In this document: positions 1 to 11,933 of the stretch, piece by piece | Numbering within the stretch: position 1 is the first letter of the stretch | Layout of the letters: each line of letters starts with the position of its first letter | Origin: a virus | Reading direction: 5' to 3' (one strand) | DNA: 11,933 bases | UHGV virus genome: UHGV-0293518 | Made by a program: the position numbers and the translations under genes | Notes under the pieces: generated by a model | What the model was told of the DNA's origin: nothing | Databases searched by the model: none | Seen by the model: only the letters and a program-made list of their open reading frames with translations

Positions 1-362
1 CTTAACTGATATCCCTTTTAACGGATAAAGGTATTCAAGCCTGACACATCATGCGCTGTATCGTCGCCGTATTCCCGTATTAACAGAGACCGTAGCCCGA
101 CGGGGAACTCCTTCTGCGCGAGTGTGCGGGAATAATCAAAAACGATGCACACCGGGTTTTTACCGCGTTTATGGTTCGCGGGTTTGTCCCTCATGCTCGC
201 CAGTCCTGTGCGGGGGTGGAAGAAACAGGACACTTACACTGATTCTTGTGGGCACGATGCTATGCCTTTCTGGATTATCCCGATGCCATTCATGCAAGGC
301 GTTGTATCAGACGTTCGTCAGAGCTGTCAGGCTGACGGGTCCTCCCGGTGGGGTGGCCTGCC

Positions 363-383
363 ACGGGGCGGGAGCGTCGCGGA
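363..383. promoter_or_regulatory. Candidate cos site (cosN-like terminase nicking region)
   Basis: ACGGGGCGG...TCGCGG at 363-382 resembles the lambda cosN region (ACG-GGGCGGCGACCT-CGCGGG) as I recall it, with flanks matching and the centre diverged. It sits about 170-190 bp upstream of the small terminase start, the same geometry as lambda cosN to Nu1. Exact nick positions are not determinable from sequence. Confidence 0.4.
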
Positions 384-420
384 AAAAGGCTAGTTTTTGA
401 AATTTCATTCGTCATCACCA

Positions 421-457
421 CCACTGTAATAGATTGATATTACAGTGGTTTTATTTT
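421..457. repeat. Perfect 10-bp inverted repeat (CCACTGTAAT / ATTACAGTGG) with 8-nt loop, followed by a T-rich run; possible cosB-like terminase binding element or terminator
   Basis: Read directly: left arm 421-430, loop 431-438, right arm 439-448, then TTTTATTTTTATGG. Lies between the candidate cosN and the small terminase start. Confidence 0.5.
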
Positions 458-551
458 TATGGTGTCGATTTTGGTTGTTTTTTGTTCATCACTAACACCG
501 TTTGCCTAAAGTTGTTCGCGAGATGCATGTTTAAAACATTCTGGAGCGGGT

Positions 552-1046
552 ATGGATCGAGAGTTAAAAAATCTGACGCTGAATATCAGTCAACTGGCGG
601 CACTGTCAGGTGTACATCGCCAGACTGCTGCGGCAAGGCTGCAAAATCTACCCGTTGCAGGGGGGCATGAAAGCAACCTCAAGCTTTATCGGGTGGTTGA
701 TATTGTGTCGGCATTTCTGGCATTGCCACCGCCGGTTGCAGAAGGCGAAATGGACGCGCATGAGCGCAAAGCCTGGTATCAGTCTGAACGTGAGCGTCTT
801 AAGTTCGAACAGGAAACGGCACAACTCATTCCGGCCAGTGATGTCAGACGGGAGTTTGCCATCTGGGCAAAAGCGGTCGTGCAGGTGCTGGAGACATTAC
901 CGGATATTCTGGAACGTGACTGCGGTCTGCAGCCTGCCGCTGTGAGCCGTGTTCAGTCCATTATTGATGATCTGCGCGATCAGATAGCCCTGCGGGTGAC
1001 TGAAGCAGGTGCGGATGATGAGGAGGAATTACAGCAGGAGGAGTAA
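552..1046 (+). CDS. Terminase small subunit (DNA-packaging protein, not the lambda Nu1 sequence family)
   Basis: 164-aa ORF directly upstream of and overlapping (TAATG) the large terminase gene. GGAG lies 6-9 nt before the ATG. Has an N-terminal helix-turn-helix-like segment (LNISQLAALSGVHRQTAAARL) and an acidic C-terminal tail (DDEEELQQEE). Assignment is by position and architecture. Confidence 0.75.
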   Translation: MDRELKNLTLNISQLAALSGVHRQTAAARLQNLPVAGGHESNLKLYRVVDIVSAFLALPPPVAEGEMDAHERKAWYQSERERLKFEQETAQLIPASDVRREFAIWAKAVVQVLETLPDILERDCGLQPAAVSRVQSIIDDLRDQIALRVTEAGADDEEELQQEE

Positions 1047-3154
1047 TGCTGAATCAGGAAACCGCAAAGGCAGCACGAACCGATTCAGGTTATATCCTTC
1101 GCGCACCGAGACGAATGCGGGTTGCTGATGCCGTTGCTCAGTATATGCGGGTGCCCATGGGGGCAGGGAACTCAGTCCCGTGGGATCCGCTGGTGGCACC
1201 GTATGTTATTGAGCCGATGAACTGCCTGGCCTCGCGTGAATACGACGCAGTGATATTTGTTGGCCCGGCACGAACCGGCAAGACTATCGGCCTGATTGAC
1301 GGCTGGGTGATTTACAACGTGATTTGCGATCCTGCTGATATGCTGATTATTCAGATGACGGAGGAAAAAGCCCGCGAACACTCCAAAAAACGACTCGCCA
1401 GAACGTTTCGCGTCAGCCCGGAAGTGGTCAGTCGCCTGAGTCCGAACAAAAATGACAACAACGTTTATGACAGAACATTCCTTGCTGGTAACTACCTGAA
1501 AATCGGCTGGCCGTCAGTCAATATCATGTCCTCATCAGATTATAAATGCGTCGCGCTGACGGATTATGACCGTTTTCCGGAAGATATTGATGGCGAGGGG
1601 GATGCTTTCTCTCTTGCCTCAAAACGTACCACAACATTTATGTCCAGTGGTATGACGCTGGTGGAGAGTTCCCCCGGCAGAGATGTGAAGGATGTGAAAT
1701 GGCGACGGACTTCACCGCATGAGGCTCCACCAACCACGGGGATACTGTCGCTCTATAACCGTGGCGATCGCCGTCGCTGGTACTGGCCCTGTCCACACTG
1801 TGGTGAGTATTTTCAGCCCTGCGGCGATGTGGTTGCTGGTTTCCGTGATATTGCCGATCCCGTGCTGGCAAGTGAGGCGGCTTATATTCAGTGTCCTTCC
1901 TGTTCAGGACGGATTATGCCTGAACAAAAACGTGAGCTGAACGGACGTGGGGTCTGGTTGCGGGATGGTGAATCCATCAATGCGGATGGCAGTCGTTATG
2001 GTGATCCCCGACGCTCACGTATTGCGTCATTCTGGATGGAGGGTCCGGCAGCTGCTTACCAGACACTCTCGCAACTCGTTTACAAACTGCTTACTGCAGA
2101 ACAGGAATACGAGACAACCGGAAGTGAAGAAACACTCAAGACGGTTATCAATACCGACTGGGGATTACCTTATCTTCCCCGCGCCAGCATGGAGCAACGA
2201 AAAAGTGAACTGCTTGAGCAGCGGGCAGAGCCAGTTCCTTCCCGCAGTGTGCCGGATGGCGTTAATTTTCTTGTGGCGACAGTGGATGTGCAGGCGGGAC
2301 GTCATCGCCGTTTTGTGGTTCAGGTAACGGGCTATGGCAGCCGTGGCGAACGCTGGATTATTGATCGTTACAACATCACGCAGTCATTGCGCGGTGACAG
2401 CGACGGGGAGAGCCAGCGAATTGATCCGGCCAGCTATCCGGAAGACTGGGATGTCCTGCTGACGGATGTTTTTCATAAAAGCTGGCCGCTGGCCTCCGAT
2501 CCTTCTCAACAAATGCGACTGATGGCAATGGCGGTGGACTCCGGCGGTGAAGACGGGGTCACTGATAATGCCTATAAATTCTGGCGTCGTTGCCGTCGTG
2601 ATGGCCTTGGTAAACGTATTTACCTGTTTAAGGGCGACAGCATCCGGCGCGCAAAACTGATCACCCGTACATTCCCTGATAACACCGGACGAACGGGCCG
2701 ACGGGCGCAGGCCGCAGGTGATGTGCCGCTCTGGCTTCTTCAGACGGATGCACTGAAAGACCGGGTGAATAACGCGTTATGGCGTGACTCGCCAGGTCCC
2801 GGCTATGTGCATTTCCCTGACTGGCTGGGGAGCTGGTTTTACGACGAACTGACGTATGAAGAGCGGAGCAGTGACGGGAAATGGAGTAAGCCGGGTCGCG
2901 GTGCCAACGAAGCTTTTGACCTGATGGTGTATGCCGAGGCTCTGGTCATTCTGCATGGATACGAAAAGATCCGCTGGCCGGATGCACCGGAGTGGGCGAG
3001 CCGGGAAACCTGGCTGGAGTGTGTCCCGGACAGTATCGAACCGTCACCCTCACCCTCACCGGAACCGGTATCCACGCCTGTTAAAAAACAAAAACGGAAG
3101 AAAACAGTAACTGACGATGTTAACCCCTGGCTGACTTCCGGAGGATGGTTATGA
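1046..3154 (+). CDS. A: Terminase large subunit, gpA family
   Basis: 702-aa ORF. Walker A P-loop GPARTGKT at 1262-1285. CPHC...CPSC zinc-ribbon-like motif at 1790-1906, analogous to lambda gpA CPHC. Start overlaps the small terminase stop and the stop overlaps the next gene start (ATGA). Confidence 0.9.
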   Translation: MLNQETAKAARTDSGYILRAPRRMRVADAVAQYMRVPMGAGNSVPWDPLVAPYVIEPMNCLASREYDAVIFVGPARTGKTIGLIDGWVIYNVICDPADMLIIQMTEEKAREHSKKRLARTFRVSPEVVSRLSPNKNDNNVYDRTFLAGNYLKIGWPSVNIMSSSDYKCVALTDYDRFPEDIDGEGDAFSLASKRTTTFMSSGMTLVESSPGRDVKDVKWRRTSPHEAPPTTGILSLYNRGDRRRWYWPCPHCGEYFQPCGDVVAGFRDIADPVLASEAAYIQCPSCSGRIMPEQKRELNGRGVWLRDGESINADGSRYGDPRRSRIASFWMEGPAAAYQTLSQLVYKLLTAEQEYETTGSEETLKTVINTDWGLPYLPRASMEQRKSELLEQRAEPVPSRSVPDGVNFLVATVDVQAGRHRRFVVQVTGYGSRGERWIIDRYNITQSLRGDSDGESQRIDPASYPEDWDVLLTDVFHKSWPLASDPSQQMRLMAMAVDSGGEDGVTDNAYKFWRRCRRDGLGKRIYLFKGDSIRRAKLITRTFPDNTGRTGRRAQAAGDVPLWLLQTDALKDRVNNALWRDSPGPGYVHFPDWLGSWFYDELTYEERSSDGKWSKPGRGANEAFDLMVYAEALVILHGYEKIRWPDAPEWASRETWLECVPDSIEPSPSPSPEPVSTPVKKQKRKKTVTDDVNPWLTSGGWL

Positions 3155-3363
3155 ACCAGAATGATATCGAAGCCATGATTCAGCGTTATACGGAAGCTGA
3201 AATGGCGGTGCTGGACGGAAAATCCGTCACCTTTAATGGTCAGCAGATGACCATGGAAAACTTATCTGAGATCCGGCAGGGACGGCAGGAGTGGGAGCGC
3301 CGCCTTGCGGCTCTGATTACACGACGACGGGGGCATCCCGGGTACCGGCTGGCGAGGTTCTGA
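3151..3363 (+). CDS. W: Head-tail joining protein, gpW-like
   Basis: About 70 aa, immediately after the large terminase as in lambda. C-terminus ITRRRGHPGY resembles the lambda gpW C-terminus (RRRGPAGFYV) as I recall it. Start at 3151 is preferred over 3145 because GGAGG at 3140-3144 is then 6 nt upstream. Confidence 0.7.
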   Translation: MNQNDIEAMIQRYTEAEMAVLDGKSVTFNGQQMTMENLSEIRQGRQEWERRLAALITRRRGHPGYRLARF

Positions 3364-4871
3364 TGGCAATTCTTGATGATGTGATTGGCGTTTTTTCACC
3401 AGGATGGAAAGCGGCAAGGCTGCGTTCCCGTGCGGTGATCCAGGCTTATGAGGCCGTAAAAACGACGCGGACACACAAAGCCCGGCGGGAGAACCGAACT
3501 GCCGACCAGTTAAGCCAGTACGGGGCCGTGTCGTTACGTGAGCAGGCCCGTTACCTTGATAACAACCACGATCTGGTTATTGGTGTATTTGACAAGCTGG
3601 AAGAACGGGTGGTGGGGAAAAACGGGATTATTGTCGAGCCACATCCGGTATTACGCAATGGGGCCATTGCCCGTGATCTGGCAGCGGAGATTCGCACCCG
3701 ATGGAGTGAATGGTCTGTCAGCCCGGAAGTCACCGGGCAGTTTACCCGTCCGATGCTGGAACGTCTGATGCTGCGTACCTGGCTGCGCGATGGTGAGGTG
3801 TTTGCCCAGATGGTTTCCGGGCGCATAAACAGCCTGACGCCTTCTGCCGGTGTTCATTTCTGGCTGGAGGCGCTCGAGCCGGACTTTATTCCCATGACCA
3901 GTGATGAGAGCAACAGGCTGAATCAGGGCGTGTTTGTTGATGACTGGGGGCGTCCCGAAAAATATCTGGTGTATAAAAGCCGTCCCGTATCCGGACGGCA
4001 GATGGAAACCAAAGAAGTGGATGCAGAGCGAATGCTGCATCTTAAATTTGTTCGCCGTCTGCACCAGATGCGCGGGACGTCTTTGTTGTCCGGTGTGCTG
4101 ATCCGCCTCAGTGCCCTGAAAGATTATGAAGATTATGAGCTGACTGCAGCAAGGATCGCCGCTGCTCTGGGGATGTACATCCGCAAAGGCGACGGGCAGA
4201 GCTATGAACCGGATGGTAATGGCAGCAAGGATAAGGAACGCGAGCTTACCATTCAGCCAGGCATTATTTACGATGATCTGAAACCCGGCGAAGAAATCGG
4301 AATGGTGAAGTCGGATCGCCCCAATCCTAACCTTGAAACTTTTCGTAATGGTCAGTTGCGTGCCGTGGCGGCGGGCAGTCGTCTGAGTTTTTCCAGTACA
4401 GCGCGCAACTATAACGGCACTTACAGCGCCCAGCGTCAGGAGCTGGTTGAATCTACTGATGGCTACCTGATCCTGCAGGACTGGTTTATTGGTGCCGTCA
4501 CCCGCCCGATGTATCGTGCATGGCTGAAACAGGCTGTGGCATCCGGTGTTATCAGGCTACCCCGCGATCTTGACCGTTCTTCACTGTATACCGCGGTGTA
4601 TTCCGGACCAGTGATGCCGTGGATTGACCCTGTTAAGGAGGCTGAGGCCTGGAAAATCCAGATTCGTGGTGGAGCGGCGACAGAATCAGACTGGGTACGT
4701 GCTGGTGGTCGTAATCCGGATGATGTCAAACGTCGGCGCAAGGCCGAAATTGATGAAAACCGCAAGCTGGATCTGGTATTTGATACCGATCCGGCCAGTG
4801 ATAAAGGAGGCAGTAGTGCCGCAACGAAACGACAGGAGCCGCAGCACACCGACGACCAGTCCGAAGATTAA
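3363..4871 (+). CDS. B: Portal protein, lambda gpB-like
   Basis: 502-aa ORF in the portal position after W. Start taken at ATG 3363 (MAILDDVIG...), which overlaps the W stop as TGATG and has GAGG upstream. The ORF-track start at 3291 is an in-frame upstream ATG inside W. Confidence 0.85.
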   Translation: MAILDDVIGVFSPGWKAARLRSRAVIQAYEAVKTTRTHKARRENRTADQLSQYGAVSLREQARYLDNNHDLVIGVFDKLEERVVGKNGIIVEPHPVLRNGAIARDLAAEIRTRWSEWSVSPEVTGQFTRPMLERLMLRTWLRDGEVFAQMVSGRINSLTPSAGVHFWLEALEPDFIPMTSDESNRLNQGVFVDDWGRPEKYLVYKSRPVSGRQMETKEVDAERMLHLKFVRRLHQMRGTSLLSGVLIRLSALKDYEDYELTAARIAAALGMYIRKGDGQSYEPDGNGSKDKERELTIQPGIIYDDLKPGEEIGMVKSDRPNPNLETFRNGQLRAVAAGSRLSFSSTARNYNGTYSAQRQELVESTDGYLILQDWFIGAVTRPMYRAWLKQAVASGVIRLPRDLDRSSLYTAVYSGPVMPWIDPVKEAEAWKIQIRGGAATESDWVRAGGRNPDDVKRRRKAEIDENRKLDLVFDTDPASDKGGSSAATKRQEPQHTDDQSED

Positions 4872-4884
4872 TTCCTGGTTCAGG

Positions 4885-5697
4885 ATGCAGGCTGGTCACC
4901 AGAGTGACGCGGATATTTATATTTATGACGAGATTGGTTTCTGGGGTGTTACAGCGAAGCAGTTTATCAGTGATCTGAATGCACTGGGCGATATCACCCA
5001 CATTAATCTCCATATCAATTCACCGGGTGGCGATGTCTTTGAAGGCATCGCCATTTTTAATGCGCTGAAAACACATGGTGCGTCCATTACCGTTTATGTC
5101 GACGGTGTGGCGGCGTCAATGGCGTCGGTCATTGCGATGGTGGGAAATCTGAACAGCCTTGATACCCGTATGGTGCCACAGGCCAGCGCATGGGCGATAA
5201 ACCGTGTGGCACAGAAAGCGGTCTCGGTTGCCACCCGGCAGGTTGCCGGGAATACCGTTGCGGGAGATAACCAGGTGAAAGGGATACCCCTGAAACTGGT
5301 ACGTCAGCGTGTCCGGGTGTTTAAAGCCAGTCCGTCAGGAAAAATGACGGCCAGGATCCGCGTTAACCGGGGCAATCTGCCTGCCATTAAGCTGGGGACC
5401 GCCCGGGTCAGACTGACCCGGCGTGGTGGAAAACTGCAGTACCGTGGCAGCGTGCTGAAGGTGGGTAAATATCTTTTCCGGGATGCGTTTATTCAGCAAC
5501 TGGCGAATGGTCGCTGGCATGTGATGCGGCGTATTGATGGCAAAAATCGTTACCCCATTGATGTGGTGAAAATCCCTCTGTCCGGACCGCTGACACAGGC
5601 ATTTGAAGATGCCCGCGACCGCATCATTGCTGCGGAAATGCCGAAACAGCTGGGGTATGCACTGAAACAACAACTGAGGTTATGGCTGACCCGATGA
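4885..5697 (+). CDS. Chimeric ORF: N-terminal fragment of ClpP-like prohead protease fused in frame to a gpZ-like tail completion protein (deletion remnant, probably non-functional as a protease)
   Basis: Residues 1-87 carry ClpP/S14-type prohead protease motifs (IYIYDEIG, INSPGGDVFEGIAIFNAL, GVAASMASVIAMVG). From about nt 5146 the sequence (NLNSLDTRMVPQASAWAINRV ... RIRVNRGNLPAIKLGTARV ... QQLANGRWHVMRRIDGKNRYPIDVVKIP ... LGYALKQQLRLW) follows lambda gpZ as I recall it. Ends with ATGA overlap onto U, as Z/U do in lambda. Start chosen at ATG 4885 just after the portal stop. Confidence 0.65.
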   Translation: MQAGHQSDADIYIYDEIGFWGVTAKQFISDLNALGDITHINLHINSPGGDVFEGIAIFNALKTHGASITVYVDGVAASMASVIAMVGNLNSLDTRMVPQASAWAINRVAQKAVSVATRQVAGNTVAGDNQVKGIPLKLVRQRVRVFKASPSGKMTARIRVNRGNLPAIKLGTARVRLTRRGGKLQYRGSVLKVGKYLFRDAFIQQLANGRWHVMRRIDGKNRYPIDVVKIPLSGPLTQAFEDARDRIIAAEMPKQLGYALKQQLRLWLTR

Positions 5698-6095
5698 ACC
5701 GACATACACAAATCCGCCAGGTCGTACTGGCACGCCTTCGGGAACAGTGTGGAGACAGCGCCACGTTTTTTGACGGGCTTCCGGCATTTGTTGATGCGCA
5801 GGAACTGCCTGCCGTGGCGGTGTGGCTGAGTGATGCTCAGTACACCGGAAAAATGACGGATGAAGATGACTGGCAGGCTGTTCTGCATATTGCTGTCTTC
5901 ATCCGGGCACAGGCACCGGATTCAGAGCTGGATATGTGGATGGAGAGCACCATTTTCCCGGCCCTGAATGATGTACCGGCACTTTCCGGACTCATCGACA
6001 CCCTGATCCCACTCGGTTTTAACTATCAACGTGATAATGAGATGGCCACCTGGGCGATGGCGGAAATCACGTACCAGATCACGTACACGAATTAA
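5694..6095 (+). CDS. U: Tail tube terminator protein, lambda gpU-like
   Basis: Strong similarity to lambda gpU as recalled (ATFFDG, ELPAVAV, DWQAVLHIAVF, DSELDMWMES, ALSGLI, ITYQITY). Start at ATG 5694 overlaps the preceding stop and matches the lambda N-terminus (MNRHTQIRQVVL vs MKHTELRAAVL). An alternative upstream ATG exists at 5682. Confidence 0.85.
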   Translation: MNRHTQIRQVVLARLREQCGDSATFFDGLPAFVDAQELPAVAVWLSDAQYTGKMTDEDDWQAVLHIAVFIRAQAPDSELDMWMESTIFPALNDVPALSGLIDTLIPLGFNYQRDNEMATWAMAEITYQITYTN

Positions 6096-6105
6096 GGAGG
6101 TGGCA

Positions 6106-6849
6106 ATGACCACACCAAATCCACTGGCAAAAACGAAAGGTGCGGGAACGACGTTCTGGATGTACACCGGCAAGGGCGATGCGTTTGCGAACCCTTTATC
6201 GGACACTGACTGGCTGCGTCTTGCGATGGTGAAGGATCTGCAGCCTGGCGAAATGACCGCTGATGCAGAAGATGACACTTATCTCGATGATGAAGATGCA
6301 GACTGGAAAACGACAACCCAGGGGCAGAAATCCGTCGGTGATACTTCGGCGACGCTGGCCTGGCGTCCGGGTGACAGCGGGCAGAAAAAACTGGTTCAGT
6401 TGTTCGACTCCGGTGAAGTCTGCGCGTTTCGTATCAAATATCCCAACGGTACTGTTGATGTTTTCCGTGGCTGGCTGAGTTCACTGGGTAAAACCATTGC
6501 CTCAAAAGACGTGATGACCCGCACAGTGAAAATCAGCGGTGTGGGGCGTCCGTATCTGGCAGAAGAAGGCACTGAAACCGTGGGCGTTACCGGGCTGACG
6601 GTGGCACCGGCATCTGCCAGTGTAAAAGTGGGAGCAACCACCACGCTGACCTTTACAGTAAAACCTGACGGAGCCAGTGACAAAGCGATCAGTGTGCATT
6701 CGACAGATCCACAGACTGCCACGGTGACCCTGAACGGGCTTGTGGCCACGGTGAAAGGCGTGAAGCAGGGCAGTGTCAGCATTGTGGGCATGACTTCTGA
6801 CGGCGATTTTGTGGCAGTGGCTACGGTGGCTGTCAGCGCCGCAGGTTAA
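6106..6849 (+). CDS. V: Major tail tube protein, lambda gpV-like, with C-terminal Ig-like (Big_2-type) domain
   Basis: N-terminal region is close to lambda gpV as recalled (KGAGTT, ANPLSD, YLDDEDADW, QGQKS, GDTS, TLAW, PNGTVDVFRGW, RTVK, VGRP). The C-terminal ~90 aa are Thr/Val/Ser-rich, typical of the Ig-like decoration domain. AGGAGG lies 6 nt before ATG 6106. Confidence 0.9.
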   Translation: MTTPNPLAKTKGAGTTFWMYTGKGDAFANPLSDTDWLRLAMVKDLQPGEMTADAEDDTYLDDEDADWKTTTQGQKSVGDTSATLAWRPGDSGQKKLVQLFDSGEVCAFRIKYPNGTVDVFRGWLSSLGKTIASKDVMTRTVKISGVGRPYLAEEGTETVGVTGLTVAPASASVKVGATTTLTFTVKPDGASDKAISVHSTDPQTATVTLNGLVATVKGVKQGSVSIVGMTSDGDFVAVATVAVSAAG

Positions 6850-6869
6850 CAGGACGATACTCATCATTT

Positions 6870-6893
6870 GCCCCGATTATCCGGGGCTTTTTT
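6870..6893 (+). terminator. Intrinsic-terminator-like hairpin between V and G (GCCCCG-ATTATC-CGGGGC followed by TTTTTT)
   Basis: Read directly: 6-bp GC-rich stem 6870-6875 / 6882-6887, 6-nt loop, U-run 6888-6893, about 20 nt after the V stop. Could attenuate transcription after the abundant major tail protein. Confidence 0.5.
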
Positions 6894-6906
6894 GCAGGTG
6901 GAGAAC

Positions 6907-7296
6907 ATGATGTTTCTGAAACAGGGCACGTTTAATTATGAAAAGCAGTCCGTGGTGCTCAGTGAGCTGTCCGGGCTGCAGAGAATTGAATATCTGGCGT
7001 TTGTTCAGCAGCGAACGGCAAAGTTTGATGCCGAAGAGGGAGAACTGCCGGAGGCTGAACGACAGATTGCTTTTCTGCGGATGGGGATGGATATCAATGC
7101 CTGGCTGGTTTCCCGCTCACTGTGGAATGCGGATCAGTCTAAGGATGTAGAGACGCTTTGCGCATCCGTTATTACAACATGGTCGTATGATGCCCTGGGT
7201 GCGGGGGCGGAGATGGTTCTGTCGCTGAGCGGTATGGGGACCATTGATAATGCCGGGGATGATGAGCATGAGGCGCTGACGCCGGAAAAGTCCTGA
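6907..7296 (+). CDS. G: Tail assembly chaperone, lambda gpG-like
   Basis: MFLK...LSELSGLQRIEYLAF...TTW...LSGM parallels lambda gpG as recalled. Start at ATG 6907 (or 6910) has a GGTGGAG Shine-Dalgarno upstream. The ORF-track start at 6868 lies inside the terminator hairpin and is unlikely. Confidence 0.85.
   Translation: MMFLKQGTFNYEKQSVVLSELSGLQRIEYLAFVQQRTAKFDAEEGELPEAERQIAFLRMGMDINAWLVSRSLWNADQSKDVETLCASVITTWSYDALGAGAEMVLSLSGMGTIDNAGDDEHEALTPEKS
7284..7290 (+). promoter_or_regulatory. Candidate -1 programmed ribosomal frameshift site for G-T fusion (GGAAAAG)
   Basis: The T reading frame is -1 relative to G and is open only from 7272. G stops at 7294-7296, so the shift must occur within 7272-7293. 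The only slippery-like sequence there is G GAA AAG (the lambda site is G GGA AAG), where the A-site Lys codon AAG can re-pair with AAA. Confidence 0.5.
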
Positions 7297-7634
7297 CGCG
7301 GGAAATGCAGTTTGTCATGCGGCTTGCCCGGGAGTTCCGGCGGGCAGACTGGCGGCGGATGCTGTCGGAAATGTCGGCCACTGAGCTTGGTGAGTGGGGC
7401 GATTATTTCCGGATGCAGAGCTTCAGTGATGTGTGGATGGATGCGCAGTTTGCCTCGCTGAAGGCATTGATCGTGAGAATGGTGTCCGGCAGTAGTGATG
7501 CTGCGGTGGCTGATTTCAGCCTTTTACCGGAAGAGAACGGGATACCGGAGCGAACGGACGAAGAACTGATGCATCTTGGGGAAGGTATTTCCGGAGGTGT
7601 GCGTTATGGACCAGATAGCCAACCTGGTCATTGA
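7290..7634 (+). CDS. T: Tail assembly protein gpT-like, expressed as a G-T fusion by -1 frameshift (T-frame portion)
   Basis: The -1 frame downstream of G encodes ...MRLAREFRRADWRRML...GEGISGGVRYGP, resembling lambda gpT as recalled (MRLAREFRRPDWRAML ... GIAGGVRYG). There is no convincing independent start or Shine-Dalgarno, which fits frameshift-dependent expression as in lambda. The 3' end overlaps the H start. Confidence 0.7.
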   Translation, partial: VLTREMQFVMRLAREFRRADWRRMLSEMSATELGEWGDYFRMQSFSDVWMDAQFASLKALIVRMVSGSSDAAVADFSLLPEENGIPERTDEELMHLGEGISGGVRYGPDSQPGH

Positions 7635-10563
7635 TTTGGGGATTGATGCGGCAGAGTTTAAAAATGAAATCCCCCGTATCAAAAACCTTCTGAATGGTGC
7701 AGCCAGCGATGCAGAACGGTCTTCTGCCCGTATGCAGCGTTTTATGGAGCGTCAGACTCAGGCCGCCCGGCAGACAACGCAGGCGGCTTCTTCGGCTGCA
7801 ACAGCCGCATCCGTCCATGCGCAGACGGTGGAGAAGAACGCACAGGCTCATGAACGCATGGCCCGCGAGGTGGAGAAAACCCGCCAGCGCATGGAGGCGC
7901 TGAGCCAGAAAATGCGCGAGGAACAGGCGCAGGCCATGGCTCTGGCGGAGGCTCAGGATAAAGCAGCTGCTGCGTTTTATCGTCAGATTGACAGTGTGAA
8001 ACAGGCCAGTGCGGGGCTGCAGGAATTACAGCGTATTCAGCAGCAGATCCGACAGGCCAGAAACAGTGGCGGGATTGGTCAGCAGGATTATCTGGCGCTG
8101 ATTTCTGAGGTTACGGCGAAAACCCGTGTTCTTACGCAGGCTGAGGAAGAGTCTACCCGACAGAAAGTGGCGTTTATCCGTCAGCTTAAAGAGCAGGCAA
8201 CCCGCCAGAATCTTTCTTCTTCTGAGTTGCTTCGTGCCAGGGCTGCCCAGCTGGGGGTAAGCAGTGCTGCAGAAGTGTATATCCGCAAAATGGAGCAGGC
8301 AGGAAAAGCCACGCATTCGCTGGGTCTGAAAAGTGCAGCAGCCCGCCAGGAGATAGGCGTTCTGATAGGTGAACTGGCCCGTGGCAATTTAGGAGCGCTG
8401 AGGGGATCCGGGATAACGCTGGCTAACCGTGCCGGATGGATAGACACACTGATGTCACCGAAAGGCATGATGCTGGGCGGGGTTATTGGCGGTATTGCCG
8501 CGGCCGTCTATGGTCTGGGTAAAGCCTGGTATGACGGTCAGAAGGAGGGGGAAGAATTTAACCGCCAGCTGTCACTGACGGGGCATTATGCCGGAGTCAC
8601 TGCCGGGCAGCTGTGGACGCTCAGTCGTGCTATTTCCGGGAATGGTATCACGCAACATGCTGCAGCCGGTGCGCTGGCTCAGGTGGTGGGGAGTGGTGCA
8701 TTTCGTGGAAACGATATCGGTATGGTGGCGAGAGCTGCCGCACAGATGGAGCGATCGGTTGGCCAGTCGGTCAGCGATACCATAAATCAGTTTAAGCGGC
8801 TGAAGGATGATCCTGTAAATGCCGCGAAGGCTCTGGACAATGAGCTGCATTTTCTTACTGCCACTCAGCTTGAGCAGATACGCGTCCTTGGGGATCAGGG
8901 GCGGTCCAGTGATGCTGCACGGATAGCCATGTCTGCACTGGCAGAGGAAACCGGTCGGCGTACTGCGGATATTGATAATAACCTCAATGCGCTGGGCAGT
9001 ACGCTGAAGTATCTGTCTGATTTATGGAGTCGTTTCTGGGATGCGGCCATGAATATTGGTCGTGAAGACTCGCTGGATGAACAGATTGCCGCTTTACAGG
9101 AGAAAGTGTCGCGGGCGAAAAGACTCCCCTGGACGGCATCATCTTCTCAGGTTGAATACGATCAGCAGCGTCTTAACGATCTTCAGGAGAAAAAACGCCA
9201 GAAGGATTTGCAGGATGCAAAAGAGCAGGCAGAGCGGAATTATCAGGAGCAACAGAAACGCCGTAATGCTGAAAATGCTGCACTGAACCGGATGAATGAA
9301 ACGGAAGCTGCACGACATCAGCGTGAAATTGCGCGTATTAATGCCATGCAGTACGCCGATCAGGCTGTCAGGGATGCGGCGATACAACGTGAAAATGAAC
9401 GTTACGAGAAAGCCCTGGCATCCGGTAAGAAAAAAACACGCGAAACCCGTAATGATGAGGCCACCCGGTTATTGCTGCAGTACAGTCAGCAACAGGCACA
9501 GGTGGAAGGACAGATTGCTGCTGCCAGACAGTCAGCAGGCATTGCCACGGAAAGGATGACAGAAGCGCATAAACAGCTTCTGGCTCTGCAGCAGCGCATC
9601 AGCGACCTGGACGGGAAAAAACTGACGGCAGATGAAAAGAGTGTGCTGGCCCGTAAAGATGAACTGATTCAGGCACTGACGCTGCTGGATGTAAAACAGC
9701 AGGAGCTTCAGAAACAGACGGCACTCAACGAGCTGAAGAAAAAAACAATTCAGCTGACCAGTCAACTGGCTGAAGAAGAGCGCGCTCAGCGTCAGCAACA
9801 TGACCTGGATATCGCCACGGTGGGTATGGGTGATCAGCAGCGACAGCGATATCAGGTACAACTGAGTCTTCGCCAGAAATACCAGCAACAGCTGGAGCAG
9901 TTGAGGCGGGATAGTGAGCAGAAAGGGACATATAACACGGATGACTACAGAAAGGCCGAGCAGGCGCTGACGGAGAGCCTGAACCGACAACTGAATGAGA
10001 ATCGCCGTTACTGGCAACAGCTTGAAGTTGTGCAGGGTAACTGGAAAAACGGAGTCCTGCGTGCATTTCAGGATTTTACCGTGGATGCAGATAATACGGC
10101 AGAAACAGCAGAACAGGTGTTCTCGTCAGCCTTCAGCAACATGGGAAATGGCCTGGCAACTTTTGTCACTACCGGCAAACTCAATTTCAAATCCTTCACC
10201 TCTTCTGTGCTGTCAGATATGGCGAAAATCCTGGCGCAGGCAACCATGATGAAATCGATAAAAGGGATTGGCAGTGTATCAGAGCCGAAAGTGGTGACAG
10301 TGAAGCTGGGCGATGGTTATGAACAGCGTCGTGCGGCGGGACTGAATAACCAGTTGTCGACTTACAGCGTGACGATACGTGTTCGTAAATGTGAACACCC
10401 ATCTTTAAAAGCCTTTCTGGAACGGCACGGTGGCGTCCGTGCATTTCAGTGGACGCCACCTTATGACTGGAAACCGATCAGGGTGGTTTGTCGTAAATGG
10501 TCGGCAAGCGTGGGGGCGCTGTGGGTAACCATAACGGCAGATTTTGAACAGGTCGTGGCATAG
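7606..10563 (+). CDS. H: Tape measure protein (gpH-like) fused in frame to the C-terminal ~95 aa of minor tail protein gpM-like (H-M chimeric ORF)
   Basis: N-terminus MDQIANLVIDLGIDAAEF parallels lambda gpH (MAEPVGDLVVDLSLDAARF) as recalled. The body is a long Q/A/E/R-rich coiled-coil-like region with a Gly-rich hydrophobic patch (MMLGGVIGGIAAAVYGLGKAWYDG). From about nt 10276 the sequence (VSEPKVVTVKLGDGYEQRRAAGLNNQLSTYSVT...FLERHGGVRAFQWTPPYDWKPIRVVCRKWS...ADFEQVVA) follows lambda gpM. GGAGGTG lies 8 nt before ATG 7606. No separate M gene exists before L. Confidence 0.8.
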   Translation: MDQIANLVIDLGIDAAEFKNEIPRIKNLLNGAASDAERSSARMQRFMERQTQAARQTTQAASSAATAASVHAQTVEKNAQAHERMAREVEKTRQRMEALSQKMREEQAQAMALAEAQDKAAAAFYRQIDSVKQASAGLQELQRIQQQIRQARNSGGIGQQDYLALISEVTAKTRVLTQAEEESTRQKVAFIRQLKEQATRQNLSSSELLRARAAQLGVSSAAEVYIRKMEQAGKATHSLGLKSAAARQEIGVLIGELARGNLGALRGSGITLANRAGWIDTLMSPKGMMLGGVIGGIAAAVYGLGKAWYDGQKEGEEFNRQLSLTGHYAGVTAGQLWTLSRAISGNGITQHAAAGALAQVVGSGAFRGNDIGMVARAAAQMERSVGQSVSDTINQFKRLKDDPVNAAKALDNELHFLTATQLEQIRVLGDQGRSSDAARIAMSALAEETGRRTADIDNNLNALGSTLKYLSDLWSRFWDAAMNIGREDSLDEQIAALQEKVSRAKRLPWTASSSQVEYDQQRLNDLQEKKRQKDLQDAKEQAERNYQEQQKRRNAENAALNRMNETEAARHQREIARINAMQYADQAVRDAAIQRENERYEKALASGKKKTRETRNDEATRLLLQYSQQQAQVEGQIAAARQSAGIATERMTEAHKQLLALQQRISDLDGKKLTADEKSVLARKDELIQALTLLDVKQQELQKQTALNELKKKTIQLTSQLAEEERAQRQQHDLDIATVGMGDQQRQRYQVQLSLRQKYQQQLEQLRRDSEQKGTYNTDDYRKAEQALTESLNRQLNENRRYWQQLEVVQGNWKNGVLRAFQDFTVDADNTAETAEQVFSSAFSNMGNGLATFVTTGKLNFKSFTSSVLSDMAKILAQATMMKSIKGIGSVSEPKVVTVKLGDGYEQRRAAGLNNQLSTYSVTIRVRKCEHPSLKAFLERHGGVRAFQWTPPYDWKPIRVVCRKWSASVGALWVTITADFEQVVA

Positions 10564-10572
10564 GAGGCTCTG

Positions 10573-11271
10573 ATGCAGGATATTCCACAGGAAACACATC
10601 ATGAGACGACACGCCTCACTCAGTCAGCCCAGGTGGTGCTCTGGGAAATCGATCTGACAGAGGTCGGTGGTGAACGTTATTTTTTCTGTAATGAGCAGAA
10701 CGAAAAAGGTGAGCCGGTTACCTGGCAGGGGCGGCAGTATCAGGCATACCCCATTCAGGGGACAGGATTTGAACTGAACGGCAAGGGCAGTGCTGCCCGT
10801 CCGACACTGACGGTTTCTAACCTGCACGGTATGGTCACCGGGATGGCGGAAGATCTGCAGAGTCTGGTCGGCGGAACGGTGGTCCGGCGTAAGGTTTACG
10901 CCCGTTTTCTGGATGCGGTGAACTTCGTCAACGGAAACAGTGACGCCGACCCGGAGCAGGAGGTGATCAGCCGCTGGCGCATCGAGCAGTGCAGCGAACT
11001 GAGCGCGGTCAGTGCCTCTTTTGTACTGGCCACGCCGACGGAAACGGACGGCGCTGTTTTTCCGGGACGTATCATGCTGGCCAACACCTGCACCTGGACC
11101 TATCGCGGCGATGAGTGCGGTTATCACGGTCCGGCGGTCGCGGATGAATATGACCAGCCAACGTCCGATATCACGAAGGATAAATGCAGCAAATGCCTGA
11201 GCGGTTGTAAGTTCCGCAATAACGTCGGCAACTTTGGCGGCTTCCTTTCCATTAACAAACTTTCGCAGTAA
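10573..11271 (+). CDS. L: Minor tail protein, lambda gpL-like (C-terminal Cys cluster)
   Basis: 232 aa, the same length as lambda gpL, in the correct position. C-terminal cysteine cluster (CTWTYRGDECGYHG ... KCSKCLSGCK) at 11089-11208 is consistent with the Fe-S-binding region described for gpL. AGGAGG lies 5 nt before the ATG. Confidence 0.9.
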   Translation: MQDIPQETHHETTRLTQSAQVVLWEIDLTEVGGERYFFCNEQNEKGEPVTWQGRQYQAYPIQGTGFELNGKGSAARPTLTVSNLHGMVTGMAEDLQSLVGGTVVRRKVYARFLDAVNFVNGNSDADPEQEVISRWRIEQCSELSAVSASFVLATPTETDGAVFPGRIMLANTCTWTYRGDECGYHGPAVADEYDQPTSDITKDKCSKCLSGCKFRNNVGNFGGFLSINKLSQ

Positions 11272-11276
11272 ATCCC

Positions 11277-11933
11277 ATGACAGAAACAGAATCAGCGATT
11301 CTGGCGCACGCCCGGCGATGTGCGCCAGCGGAGTCGTGCGGCTTCGTGGTGAGAACGCCGGAGGGAGAAAGATATTTTCCCTGCGTGAATATCTCCGGTG
11401 AGCCGGAGGAGTATTTCCGGATGTCGCCGGAGGACTGGCTGCGGGCAGAAATGCAGGGTGAGATTGTGGCGCTGGTCCACAGCCACCCCGGTGGTCTGCC
11501 CTGGCTGAGTGAGGCTGACCGGCGGCTGCAGGTGCAGAGTGATTTGCCGTGGTGGCTGGTCTGCCGGGGTGAGATTCATAAATTCCGCTGTGTGCCGCAT
11601 CTCACCGGGCGGCGCTTTGAGCACGGGGTGACGGACTGTTACACGCTGTTCCGGGATGCTTACCATCTGGCGGGGATTGAGATGCCGGATTTTCATCGCG
11701 GGGATGACTGGTGGCGTAACGGTCAGAATCTCTATCTGGATAATCTGGAGGCCACAGGGCTGTATCAGGTGCCGTTGTCAGCGGCGCAGCCGGGCGATGT
11801 GCTGCTGTGCTGTTTTGGTTCATCGGTGCCGAATCATGCCGCTATTTACTGCGGCGACGGCGAGCTGCTGCACCATATTCCTGAACAACTGAGCAAACGA
11901 GAGAGGTATACAGGTCTGCCAGCAAACAGTACC
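11277..11933 (+). CDS. K: Tail assembly protein, lambda gpK-like (MPN/JAMM plus NlpC/P60 domains), 3' end truncated by the window
   Basis: My translation from ATG 11277 (MTETESAILAHARRCAPAESCGFVV...VALVHSHPGGLPWLSEADRRLQVQSDLPWWLVCRG...GVTDCYTLFRDAYHLAG...NHAAIYCGDGELLHHIPEQLSKRERYT) is nearly identical to lambda gpK as I recall it. The ORF is open to the last base of the window. It is absent from the ORF track, presumably because no stop falls inside the window. Confidence 0.9.
   Translation, partial: MTETESAILAHARRCAPAESCGFVVRTPEGERYFPCVNISGEPEEYFRMSPEDWLRAEMQGEIVALVHSHPGGLPWLSEADRRLQVQSDLPWWLVCRGEIHKFRCVPHLTGRRFEHGVTDCYTLFRDAYHLAGIEMPDFHRGDDWWRNGQNLYLDNLEATGLYQVPLSAAQPGDVLLCCFGSSVPNHAAIYCGDGELLHHIPEQLSKRERYTGLPANST

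What the first reader, a model, noticed from the sequence alone, without database searches (positions are those of the whole stretch)
552..11933. Capsid-less lambdoid element retaining packaging and tail genes, with all lesions in frame
Small and large terminase, W, portal, U, V, G/T, L and K appear intact, and overlapping starts and stops (TAATG, ATGA) are preserved throughout. Both deletions are in frame, so polar effects on downstream genes are avoided. This differs from random decay, which usually leaves frameshifts and stops. It raises the possibility of selection for continued expression of downstream genes, or of recombination-mediated deletion at short homologies. The H-M lesion argues against a fully functional tail.
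Basis: inference. Interest (0 to 1): 0.6.

Follow-up and report, generated by a model that had tools for sequence, protein, structure and literature searches.

The report
Recently gutted lambdoid prophage remnant
This is an ordinary E. coli lambda-like prophage (mEp460/cdtI type) that has very recently lost its capsid genes and most of its tail tip through three small-homology deletions; all three join genes in frame, which is about a 1-in-20 coincidence and not good evidence of selection.

Summary
The window is the late morphogenesis operon of an mEp460/cdtI-type lambdoid E. coli prophage, 99-100% identical to intact prophages. It carries internal deletions that fuse neighbouring genes in frame.

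There are three deletions, not two:
- 2,414 bp: ClpP-protease/major-capsid gene joined to the Z-like gene.
- 437 bp: tape measure H joined to M.
- About 7,973 bp: K joined to the tail-fibre assembly gene, 22 nt before the window ends. This removes I, J, lom and the tail fibre.

So K is not intact, and the element can build neither heads nor tails.

The junctions show 2, 3 and 4 nt of microhomology (P=0.002 against random cuts). This is typical of illegitimate recombination.

The case for selection is weak:
- Three in-frame junctions out of three has P of about 0.04-0.05.
- Retained DNA downstream of junction 1 has 0 mismatches in 6,769 nt to an intact relative, and every complete retained protein exists unchanged in intact prophages. 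The absence of frameshifts therefore reflects recency.
- No junction occurs in 5,426 complete E. coli genomes, phage, plasmid, IMG/VR, JGI or GTDB collections.
- Five junctions in three other remnants of this family are all out of frame.

Verdict: a private, recent defective prophage, and ordinary.

The parts
1..551 (+). Non-coding region upstream of the terminase genes, between the lysis and packaging modules. It probably contains the cos site near 355-370.
   Evidence: 97.9% identical to the right end of the mEp460 record. Phage records cdtI, Tritos and mEp460_4F5 start at window 361-366, which suggests their cohesive end lies there. No lambda cosN sequence was found. The cos position is an inference.
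552..1046 (+). Small terminase subunit (DUF1441, Nu1 analogue), intact.
   Evidence: Pfam PF07278, E=2.7e-41. The protein is an exact copy of that in 11 other loci.
1046..3154 (+). Large terminase subunit (GpA ATPase plus nuclease), 702 aa, intact.
   Evidence: The exact protein is on record in 533 blocks of the public collection. All 10 places shown are intact prophages.
3151..3363 (+). W-like small head-tail joining protein, 70 aa, intact.
   Evidence: Same position as mEp460 gp03. Exact copy in 12 loci. No Pfam match.
3363..4871 (+). Portal protein, lambda family, 502 aa, intact.
   Evidence: Pfam PF05136, E=7.5e-82. Exact copy in the LR-25 prophage.
4885..5697 (+). In-frame fusion ORF of 270 aa: the first 88 residues of the ClpP-like prohead protease/scaffold/major capsid protein joined to Z-like tail protein residues 10-192. 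Deletion junction 1 lies at 5146-5147, with microhomology AA. 2,414 bp are missing.
   Evidence: blastn against mEp460 and LR-25. Junction alignment. Pfam: CLP_protease profile positions 29-111 of 182, plus Minor_tail_Z 8-190 of 190. The ORF runs through to the Z stop codon.
5694..6095 (+). U-like tail terminator, intact.
   Evidence: Pfam PF06141, E=1.2e-60. Exact copy in LR-25.
6106..6849 (+). V-like major tail tube protein with a C-terminal Big_2 domain, intact.
   Evidence: Pfam PF16461 and PF02368. Exact copy in LR-25.
6910..7634 (+). Tail assembly chaperones G (6910-7296) and T (7305-7634), intact.
   Evidence: Pfam PF06894 and PF06223. Exact copies in intact prophages.
7606..10563 (+). 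In-frame fusion ORF of 985 aa: tape measure protein H residues 1-891 joined to M-like tail tip protein residues 15-109. Deletion junction 2 lies at 10276-10278, with microhomology GTA. 437 bp are missing, covering the last 130 residues of H and the first 14 of M.
   Evidence: Pfam: TMP_2, TMP_4, Tape_meas_lam_C, then Phage_min_tail profile positions 13-108 of 108. The ORF runs to the M stop codon.
10573..11271 (+). L-like tail tip protein, intact.
   Evidence: Pfam PF05100, E=4.3e-99. Exact copy in LR-25.
11277..11933 (+). K-like C40 peptidase residues 1-212 (of 247), joined in frame to a tail-fibre assembly protein from residue 36. Deletion junction 3 lies at 11908-11911, with microhomology ATAC. 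The window ends 22 nt later. About 7,973 bp are missing relative to LR-25: the K C-terminus, I, J, lom, the tail fibre gene and the Tfa N-terminus.
   Evidence: The last 22 nt match LR-25 locus L013 at 39730-39751 (21 of 22) inside its tail-fibre assembly gene. Translation reads ...KRERYT|GLPANS.

Best explanation
The window is the late (packaging, head and tail) operon of an mEp460/cdtI-type lambdoid E. coli prophage. It has very recently suffered three illegitimate, microhomology-mediated deletions of 2.4, 0.44 and about 8 kb.

The deletions may have been sequential end-joining or slippage events. Alternatively they may be one replication error with several forward template switches. Together they remove the capsid/protease gene, two head-completion genes, the C-terminus of the tape measure, and the tail tip and fibre genes I, J and stf.

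The element can therefore assemble neither heads nor tails. It is a dead remnant, not a specialised capsid-less system.

That all three junctions are in frame is most likely coincidence. That the remaining genes look perfect reflects the youth of the lesions, not purifying selection.

Shown: the identity of the genes, the three junctions, their microhomologies and frames, the zero divergence, and the absence of the junctions elsewhere.

Inferred: the recombination mechanism, and that the frame coincidence is chance.
For: - The window is 98.5-99.6% identical overall to many intact phages and prophages, in which the same sequence spans 14.7 kb rather than 11.9 kb.
- Exact breakpoints and 2, 3 and 4 nt microhomologies are mapped. 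The summed microhomology of 9 nt has P=0.002 against random junctions.
- Window 5146-11911 has 0 mismatches in 6,769 nt to the LR-25 prophage.
- All nine complete retained proteins are exact copies of proteins in intact prophages.
- None of the three junctions, and neither complete fusion protein, is found anywhere else.
- The chance of three in-frame junctions is 0.037 on the naive null and 0.054 given the microhomology lengths.
- Independent remnants of the same family (E. coli B4103-1, 99-3165 and a Qin-like locus) show the same multi-deletion style of decay, with 0 of 5 junctions in frame.
- The closest relative, LR-25, already carries an amber codon in the capsid gene, inside the stretch deleted here. 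The lineage may therefore have been defective before the deletions.
Against: - Three of three in frame is still a 4-5% event. It contrasts with 0 of 5 in relatives (Fisher P of about 0.02).
- Three separate deletions with no accompanying point mutation is an unusual tempo if the events were independent.
- The flanks of the window are unknown, so the state of the rest of the prophage, and any co-resident helper, cannot be assessed.
- The source of the window could not be identified in any collection.
Confidence: 0.8

Rival explanations
1. Selection favoured in-frame deletions. Keeping translation continuous through the late operon would avoid polarity or loss of translational coupling, so downstream genes (remaining tail genes, or cargo genes beyond the tail-fibre assembly gene) are still expressed. 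Alternatively, out-of-frame truncations are harmful.
For: Three of three junctions are in frame, against 0 of 5 in other remnants. Overlapping stop/start signals suggest translational coupling in this operon.
Against: - P is only about 0.05.
- The junctions are private to this sequence, so there is no sign of persistence.
- Zero divergence means no time over which selection could be read.
- Late genes are silent in a lysogen, and Q-antiterminated transcription is resistant to polarity (established lambda biology).
- The genes that would benefit cannot form a tail, because J, I and the fibre gene are deleted.
Confidence: 0.08
2. The remnant is a helper-dependent or interfering element. It keeps cos, terminase and portal, so a related co-resident prophage could package it. 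Alternatively its chimeric ClpP-Z, H-M and K-Tfa proteins poison assembly of related superinfecting phages.
For: - The cos region, TerS, TerL and portal are intact.
- E. coli genomes that carry this module have a median of 3 related places, so helpers are common.
- In-frame fusions could give stable chimeric proteins.
- An independent capsid-less in-frame ClpP-scaffold::Z derivative exists in a divergent relative (L018).
Against: - There is no conservation of this architecture or of the junctions.
- L018 was found by a search that can only detect in-frame fusions.
- No satellite hallmark genes can be examined, because the flanks are missing.
- Nothing distinguishes this sequence from neutral decay.
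Confidence: 0.04
3. The junctions are not biological. They could come from an assembly chimera, in-vitro template switching during amplification, or deliberate engineering.
For: The junctions and fusion proteins are absent from every public collection searched. Template switching in vitro also produces microhomology.
Against: - Assembler misjoins need k-mer-length overlaps, not 2-4 nt.
- All three junctions are simple, co-linear, same-strand deletions within one operon.
- Engineered in-frame deletions are normally designed within single genes or at gene boundaries and leave scars. They are not fusions of different genes at microhomologies (general knowledge).
- Comparable natural multi-deletion remnants exist in finished genomes.
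Confidence: 0.08

Closest known systems
Enterobacteria phage mEp460 (NC_019716), phage cdtI (NC_009514), and the many intact prophages of this type in E. coli (for example strain LR-25, NZ_AP027500)
   Same: Same gene order and 96-100% nucleotide identity across everything retained. The module is DUF1441 TerS, GpA TerL, lambda-family portal, ClpP/scaffold/capsid fusion gene, and Z, U, V, G, T, H, M, L, K.
   Different: The window lacks 10.8 kb in three blocks: most of the capsid fusion gene, the decoration gene and the Gifsy-2-family gene; the H C-terminus and M N-terminus; and the K C-terminus through I, J, lom and stf to the Tfa N-terminus.
Cryptic lambdoid prophages of E. coli (the K-12 Qin type, locus L017) and the multi-deleted remnants next to potB/pepT in strains B4103-1 and 99-3165 (L014, L016)
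   Same: They are defective remnants of the same morphogenesis module, produced by internal deletions that join distant late genes: TerS to stf, TerL to portal, ClpP to U, TMP to stf, portal to stf. The left breakpoint of the ClpP to U deletion in B4103-1 lies within 1-2 nt of the window's junction 1.
   Different: Their junctions are out of frame (0 of 5). They are annotated with several pseudogenes. At least the Qin type is old and fixed in a lineage. The window's lesions are private, in frame, and show no other decay.
F-type (flexible, lambda-tail-like) tailocins
   Same: A lambda-like tail gene cluster without a capsid gene.
   Different: Tailocins lack terminase and portal and keep a complete tape measure, tail tip and fibres. 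Here terminase and portal are present, while the tape measure is truncated and J, I and the fibre gene are missing.
Phage satellites that use a helper's structural proteins (cos-type PICIs)
   Same: It carries a likely cos region and packaging genes but no capsid gene of its own, so in principle it could only be packaged by a helper.
   Different: It is a 99-100% identical deletion derivative of a full phage, not a distinct conserved lineage. No satellite-specific genes can be seen in the window. The junctions are not found in any other genome.

Membership tests
mEp460/cdtI-type lambdoid siphophage morphogenesis module | Gene order TerS(DUF1441), TerL(GpA), W-like, lambda-family portal, ClpP/capsid fusion, Z, U, V, G/T, H, M, L, K, with high nucleotide identity to type members | tested here: met
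   98.7-98.9% identity to mEp460 in three co-linear blocks. Pfam domains found for every retained gene except the W-like gene, which has no Pfam match.
Functional temperate phage (able to form virions) | Complete major capsid protein and prohead protease | tested here: not met
   Only residues 1-88 of 652 remain. The Pfam CLP_protease match stops at profile position 111 of 182, and no capsid domain is present.
Functional temperate phage (able to form virions) | Complete tail tip and tape measure (full-length H, M, L, K, I, J) | tested here: not met
   H lacks 130 C-terminal residues and is fused to M. K is truncated at residue 212 and fused to Tfa. I, J and stf are absent between them.
Domesticated or selected prophage remnant | The same remnant architecture conserved across diverged host lineages | tested here: not met
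   No junction occurs in 5,426 complete E. coli genomes, or in the phage and plasmid collections. IMG/VR was scanned for all three junctions, JGI metagenomes for junctions 1 and 2, and GTDB species representatives for junctions 1 and 3, all without a match.
Domesticated or selected prophage remnant | Evidence of purifying selection since inactivation (synonymous changes without non-synonymous changes or disruptions) | tested here: inconclusive
   There are no substitutions at all downstream of junction 1 relative to LR-25 (0 of 6,769 nt). No divergence exists on which to measure selection.
F-type tailocin | Complete tail, tip and fibre genes, with head and packaging genes absent | tested here: not met
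   Terminase and portal are present. J, I and the fibre gene are absent, and the tape measure is truncated.
Phage satellite (PICI-like) | Own integrase, replication and helper-interference genes in a compact conserved island | not testable with these tools
   The window covers only the late operon. Its flanks could not be recovered, because neither the fusion proteins nor the junctions are on record.

The most novel reading that the evidence does not exclude
The three in-frame fusions are not a coincidence. On this reading, a capsid-less, tail-tip-less derivative that keeps cos, terminase and portal persists as a parasite or antagonist of related helper prophages. It would either be packaged in trans, or be switched on by a superinfecting phage's Q protein and then poison that phage's head and tail assembly with the chimeric ClpP-Z, H-M and K-Tfa proteins.
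Probability: 0.04. Interest if true: 0.6.

Novelty: already known. Interest (0 to 1): 0.17.

Why it matters
As it stands this matters little. It is one more private, recently degraded copy of a very common E. coli prophage family, which is present at 80% coverage or more in 1,795 of 5,426 complete genomes.

It is a clean snapshot of the earliest stage of prophage decay: several microhomology deletions and not a single point mutation. It also gives a worked null for the argument that in-frame lesions imply selection. In this module P(in frame) rises from 0.32 to 0.41 as microhomology goes from 0 to 4 nt.

It would become interesting only if a large survey showed an in-frame excess, or recurrent breakpoints, among deletions in this family.

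Tried and rejected
- **Finding the source or a second copy.** I used exact look-ups of both complete fusion proteins, each with two start choices. I also ran junction searches in E. coli complete genomes, phages, plasmids, IMG/VR, JGI metagenomes and GTDB representatives. Nothing was found.
- **Lambda cosN.** A search for GGGCGGCGACCT with up to 2 mismatches gave no hit. The start of the mEp460 record is the TerS start codon, not cos. The cos position is therefore only inferred from where other phage records start.
- **Chi-limited RecBCD resection as the cause of the breakpoints.** A one-mismatch Chi-like GATGGTGG sits 4 nt 5' of the junction-1 left breakpoint. None of the other five breakpoints has one. 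There are 37 such sites in 22.6 kb, so the chance is about 6%. Rejected as a general explanation.
- **Tailocin and satellite readings.** Rejected or left untestable; see the membership tests.
- **Literature searches** for mEp460 and for in-frame or microhomology deletions in defective prophages returned nothing specific.
- **Protein search with the ClpP-Z fusion.** It found no identical fusion. It did find rare singleton in-frame fusions of Z with other neighbours, and one ClpP-scaffold::Z fusion in a divergent relative. This search can only detect in-frame events, so it says nothing about their frequency.
Full report
**What the window is.** A megablast of the whole window against phage records gives near-full-length matches at 95-98.7% identity to mEp460, cdtI, Ayreon, phi458 and similar lambdoid siphophages. 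In every case the match comes in three or more co-linear pieces that span about 14.2-14.7 kb of the record, against 11.9 kb of window. The same holds for complete E. coli genomes. Of 5,426 genomes, 1,795 carry a place covering at least 80% of the window. The best are 99.6% identical, and all of the best span 14,755 bp. The window is therefore a shortened copy of a very common prophage module.

Annotation of mEp460 and of the LR-25 prophage, together with Pfam scans of the window's ORFs, identifies these genes:
- TerS (DUF1441) 552-1046
- TerL (GpA) 1046-3154
- a W-like gene 3151-3363
- a lambda-family portal 3363-4871
- U 5694-6095
- V 6106-6849
- G 6910-7296
- T 7305-7634
- L 10573-11271

The head gene of this family is not lambda's C/Nu3/D/E set. 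It is a single 652-aa ClpP-protease/scaffold/capsid fusion (CLP_protease plus Phage_capsid_4). It is followed by a decoration gene (Phage_cement_2) and a Gifsy-2-family gene.

**The lesions.** Pairwise blastn against mEp460 and LR-25 places the breakpoints to the base.
- Junction 1 (window 5146-5147) removes 2,414 bp. It joins codon 88 of the ClpP/capsid gene to codon 10 of the Z-like gene, giving a 270-aa ORF (4885-5697). This ORF keeps only Pfam CLP_protease profile positions 29-111 of 182, then almost all of Z.
- Junction 2 (10276-10278) removes 437 bp. It joins H codon 891 to M codon 15, giving a 985-aa ORF (7606-10563).
The last 22 nt of the window do not continue gene K. They match (21 of 22) the tail-fibre assembly gene of the LR-25 prophage 7,973 bp further on. 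The join at 11908-11911 reads ...KRERYT|GLPANS, which is K residue 212 fused in frame to Tfa residue 36.

This third deletion removes the K C-terminus, I, J, lom and the side tail fibre gene. The element therefore lacks capsid, head completion, tail tip and fibre functions. 'Retaining tail genes' overstates what is left, and K is not intact.

**Are the junctions real and how did they arise?** The junctions carry 2 (AA), 3 (GTA) and 4 (ATAC) nt of microhomology. For random cut-and-join the summed ambiguity would average 2 nt, and a sum of 9 or more has P=0.002. This is the signature of illegitimate, microhomology-mediated recombination: end joining, slipped mispairing or template switching. It is not what assembler misjoins look like, since those need k-mer-length overlaps, and it is not a designed construct. 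All three are simple same-strand deletions within one operon. Whether they were three events or one multi-jump replication error cannot be decided from the sequence.

**Is 'all in frame' meaningful?** All three junctions are in frame (for the two complete ORFs; for the third). The naive probability is (1/3)^3 = 0.037. Coding sequence has codon-phase periodicity, so microhomologies are somewhat more likely between positions in the same phase. I sampled 815,156 random inter-gene deletions in the intact LR-25 module. This gave P(in frame) of 0.349, 0.376 and 0.409 for 2, 3 and 4 nt of microhomology, with a product of 0.054. This is a mild coincidence, in one window picked out of a scan.

**Why there are no frameshifts or stops.** From junction 1 to junction 3 the retained DNA has 0 mismatches in 6,769 nt to the LR-25 prophage. 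Upstream of junction 1 it is 99.1-99.5% identical to various genomes, the usual lambdoid mosaic. Each of the nine complete retained proteins is an exact copy of a protein in at least one of only about a dozen intact loci I had fetched. The TerL protein is on record in 533 blocks of the public collection. The deletions are therefore evolutionarily brand new. Point-mutational decay has had no time to occur, so its absence is not evidence of purifying selection. LR-25 itself has an amber codon (Q554*) in the capsid gene, inside the segment deleted here, which 11 other loci lack. The lineage may already have been defective.

**Is the variant conserved anywhere?** No.
- Junction-spanning queries found no record covering junction 1 (0 of 1,887 matching genomes at 80% coverage or more).
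- They found none with junction 2 (the matches are all two-piece and span 537 bp, meaning intact).
- They found none with junction 3.
- The phage and plasmid collections gave nothing for any junction.
- IMG/VR gave nothing for any junction. JGI metagenomes were scanned for junctions 1 and 2 and GTDB representatives for junctions 1 and 3, again with no match.
- The two complete fusion proteins are not on record under either start choice.
- A homology search with the ClpP-Z fusion found no equivalent protein.

**What relatives show.** The junction-1 search turned up E. coli O27:H7 B4103-1. Its prophage remnant next to potB/pepT has a similar multi-deletion architecture: TerL to portal, ClpP to U, and TMP to stf. 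Strain 99-3165 has a different deletion (portal to stf) at the same chromosomal site. A Qin-like locus joins TerS directly to stf. All five of these junctions are out of frame. So multi-deletion decay is normal for this family, and there is no family-wide in-frame tendency. The sample is small, however, and the contrast with the window (3 of 3 against 0 of 5) is nominally P of about 0.02.

Two curiosities remain:
- The left breakpoint of the B4103-1 ClpP to U deletion lies within 1-2 nt of the window's junction 1 (...GGTGGGAAA|), on a sequence background only 85% identical.
- A Logan contig from a divergent relative (65-69% nt identity) carries an independent in-frame ClpP-scaffold::Z fusion that also removes the capsid domain. 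That search could only find in-frame fusions, so it does not bear on frequency.

A Chi-like octamer sits just 5' of the shared breakpoint, but no other breakpoint has one, and such sites are frequent enough (37 in 22.6 kb) that this is about a 6% coincidence.

**Comparison with known systems.**
- It is a member, by sequence and synteny, of the mEp460/cdtI-type lambdoid phages.
- It fails the tests for a functional phage: no capsid gene and no tail tip.
- It fails the tests for an F-type tailocin: packaging genes are present, while the tail tip and fibres are absent.
- It fails the tests for a conserved domesticated remnant: the junctions are private.
- A satellite-like or interfering role cannot be excluded, because the flanks are unavailable. 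Nothing positively supports it beyond retention of the probable cos region (about 355-370, inferred from where other phage records begin) and intact terminase and portal.

**Verdict.** The suggestion of recombination at short homologies is supported. The suggestion of selection for in-frame lesions is not. This is an ordinary, very recent, private defective prophage, of low interest.

Noticed in passing
window 11908-11933: A third deletion junction, 22 nt before the window ends. K (C40 peptidase) residue 212 is fused in frame to tail-fibre assembly protein residue 36, with ATAC microhomology. About 8 kb is missing (I, J, lom, stf).
   Followed up: yes
L014 12049-12052 (E. coli O27:H7 B4103-1, NZ_CP024245), compared with window 5146-5147: An independent ClpP to U deletion in another strain, on an 85%-identical background, has its left breakpoint within 1-2 nt of the window's junction 1 (GGTGGGAAA|). 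This could be a hotspot or a coincidence. A Chi-like GATGGTGG lies 4 nt upstream, but the Chi explanation did not generalise to the other breakpoints.
   Followed up: partly
L013 23538 (E. coli LR-25 prophage, NZ_AP027500): The closest relative of the window carries an amber codon (CAG to TAG, Q554*) in the ClpP/capsid fusion gene, within the stretch deleted in the window. Eleven other loci lack it. The shared lineage may already have been capsid-defective.
   Followed up: partly
L018 3037-4203 (Logan SRR30357571 contig 86): A divergent relative (65-69% nt identity) has its own in-frame fusion of the ClpP-scaffold part (about 279 aa) to Z residue 85 (388 aa, P0116). This also deletes the capsid domain, while portal, U, V, G, T and TMP remain.
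   Followed up: partly
L014 and L016 (next to potB/pepT in strains B4103-1 and 99-3165): Two strains carry remnants of the same prophage at the same chromosomal site, with different sets of internal deletions. This gives a small natural series of decay states. All of their junctions are out of frame.
   Followed up: partly
L013 17552-40207: Exact Chi sites in the fetched LR-25 locus are strongly co-oriented: 16 on the + strand against 5 on the - strand. Within the late-operon stretch named here, Chi-like sites with one mismatch or fewer number 37 against 9.
   Followed up: no
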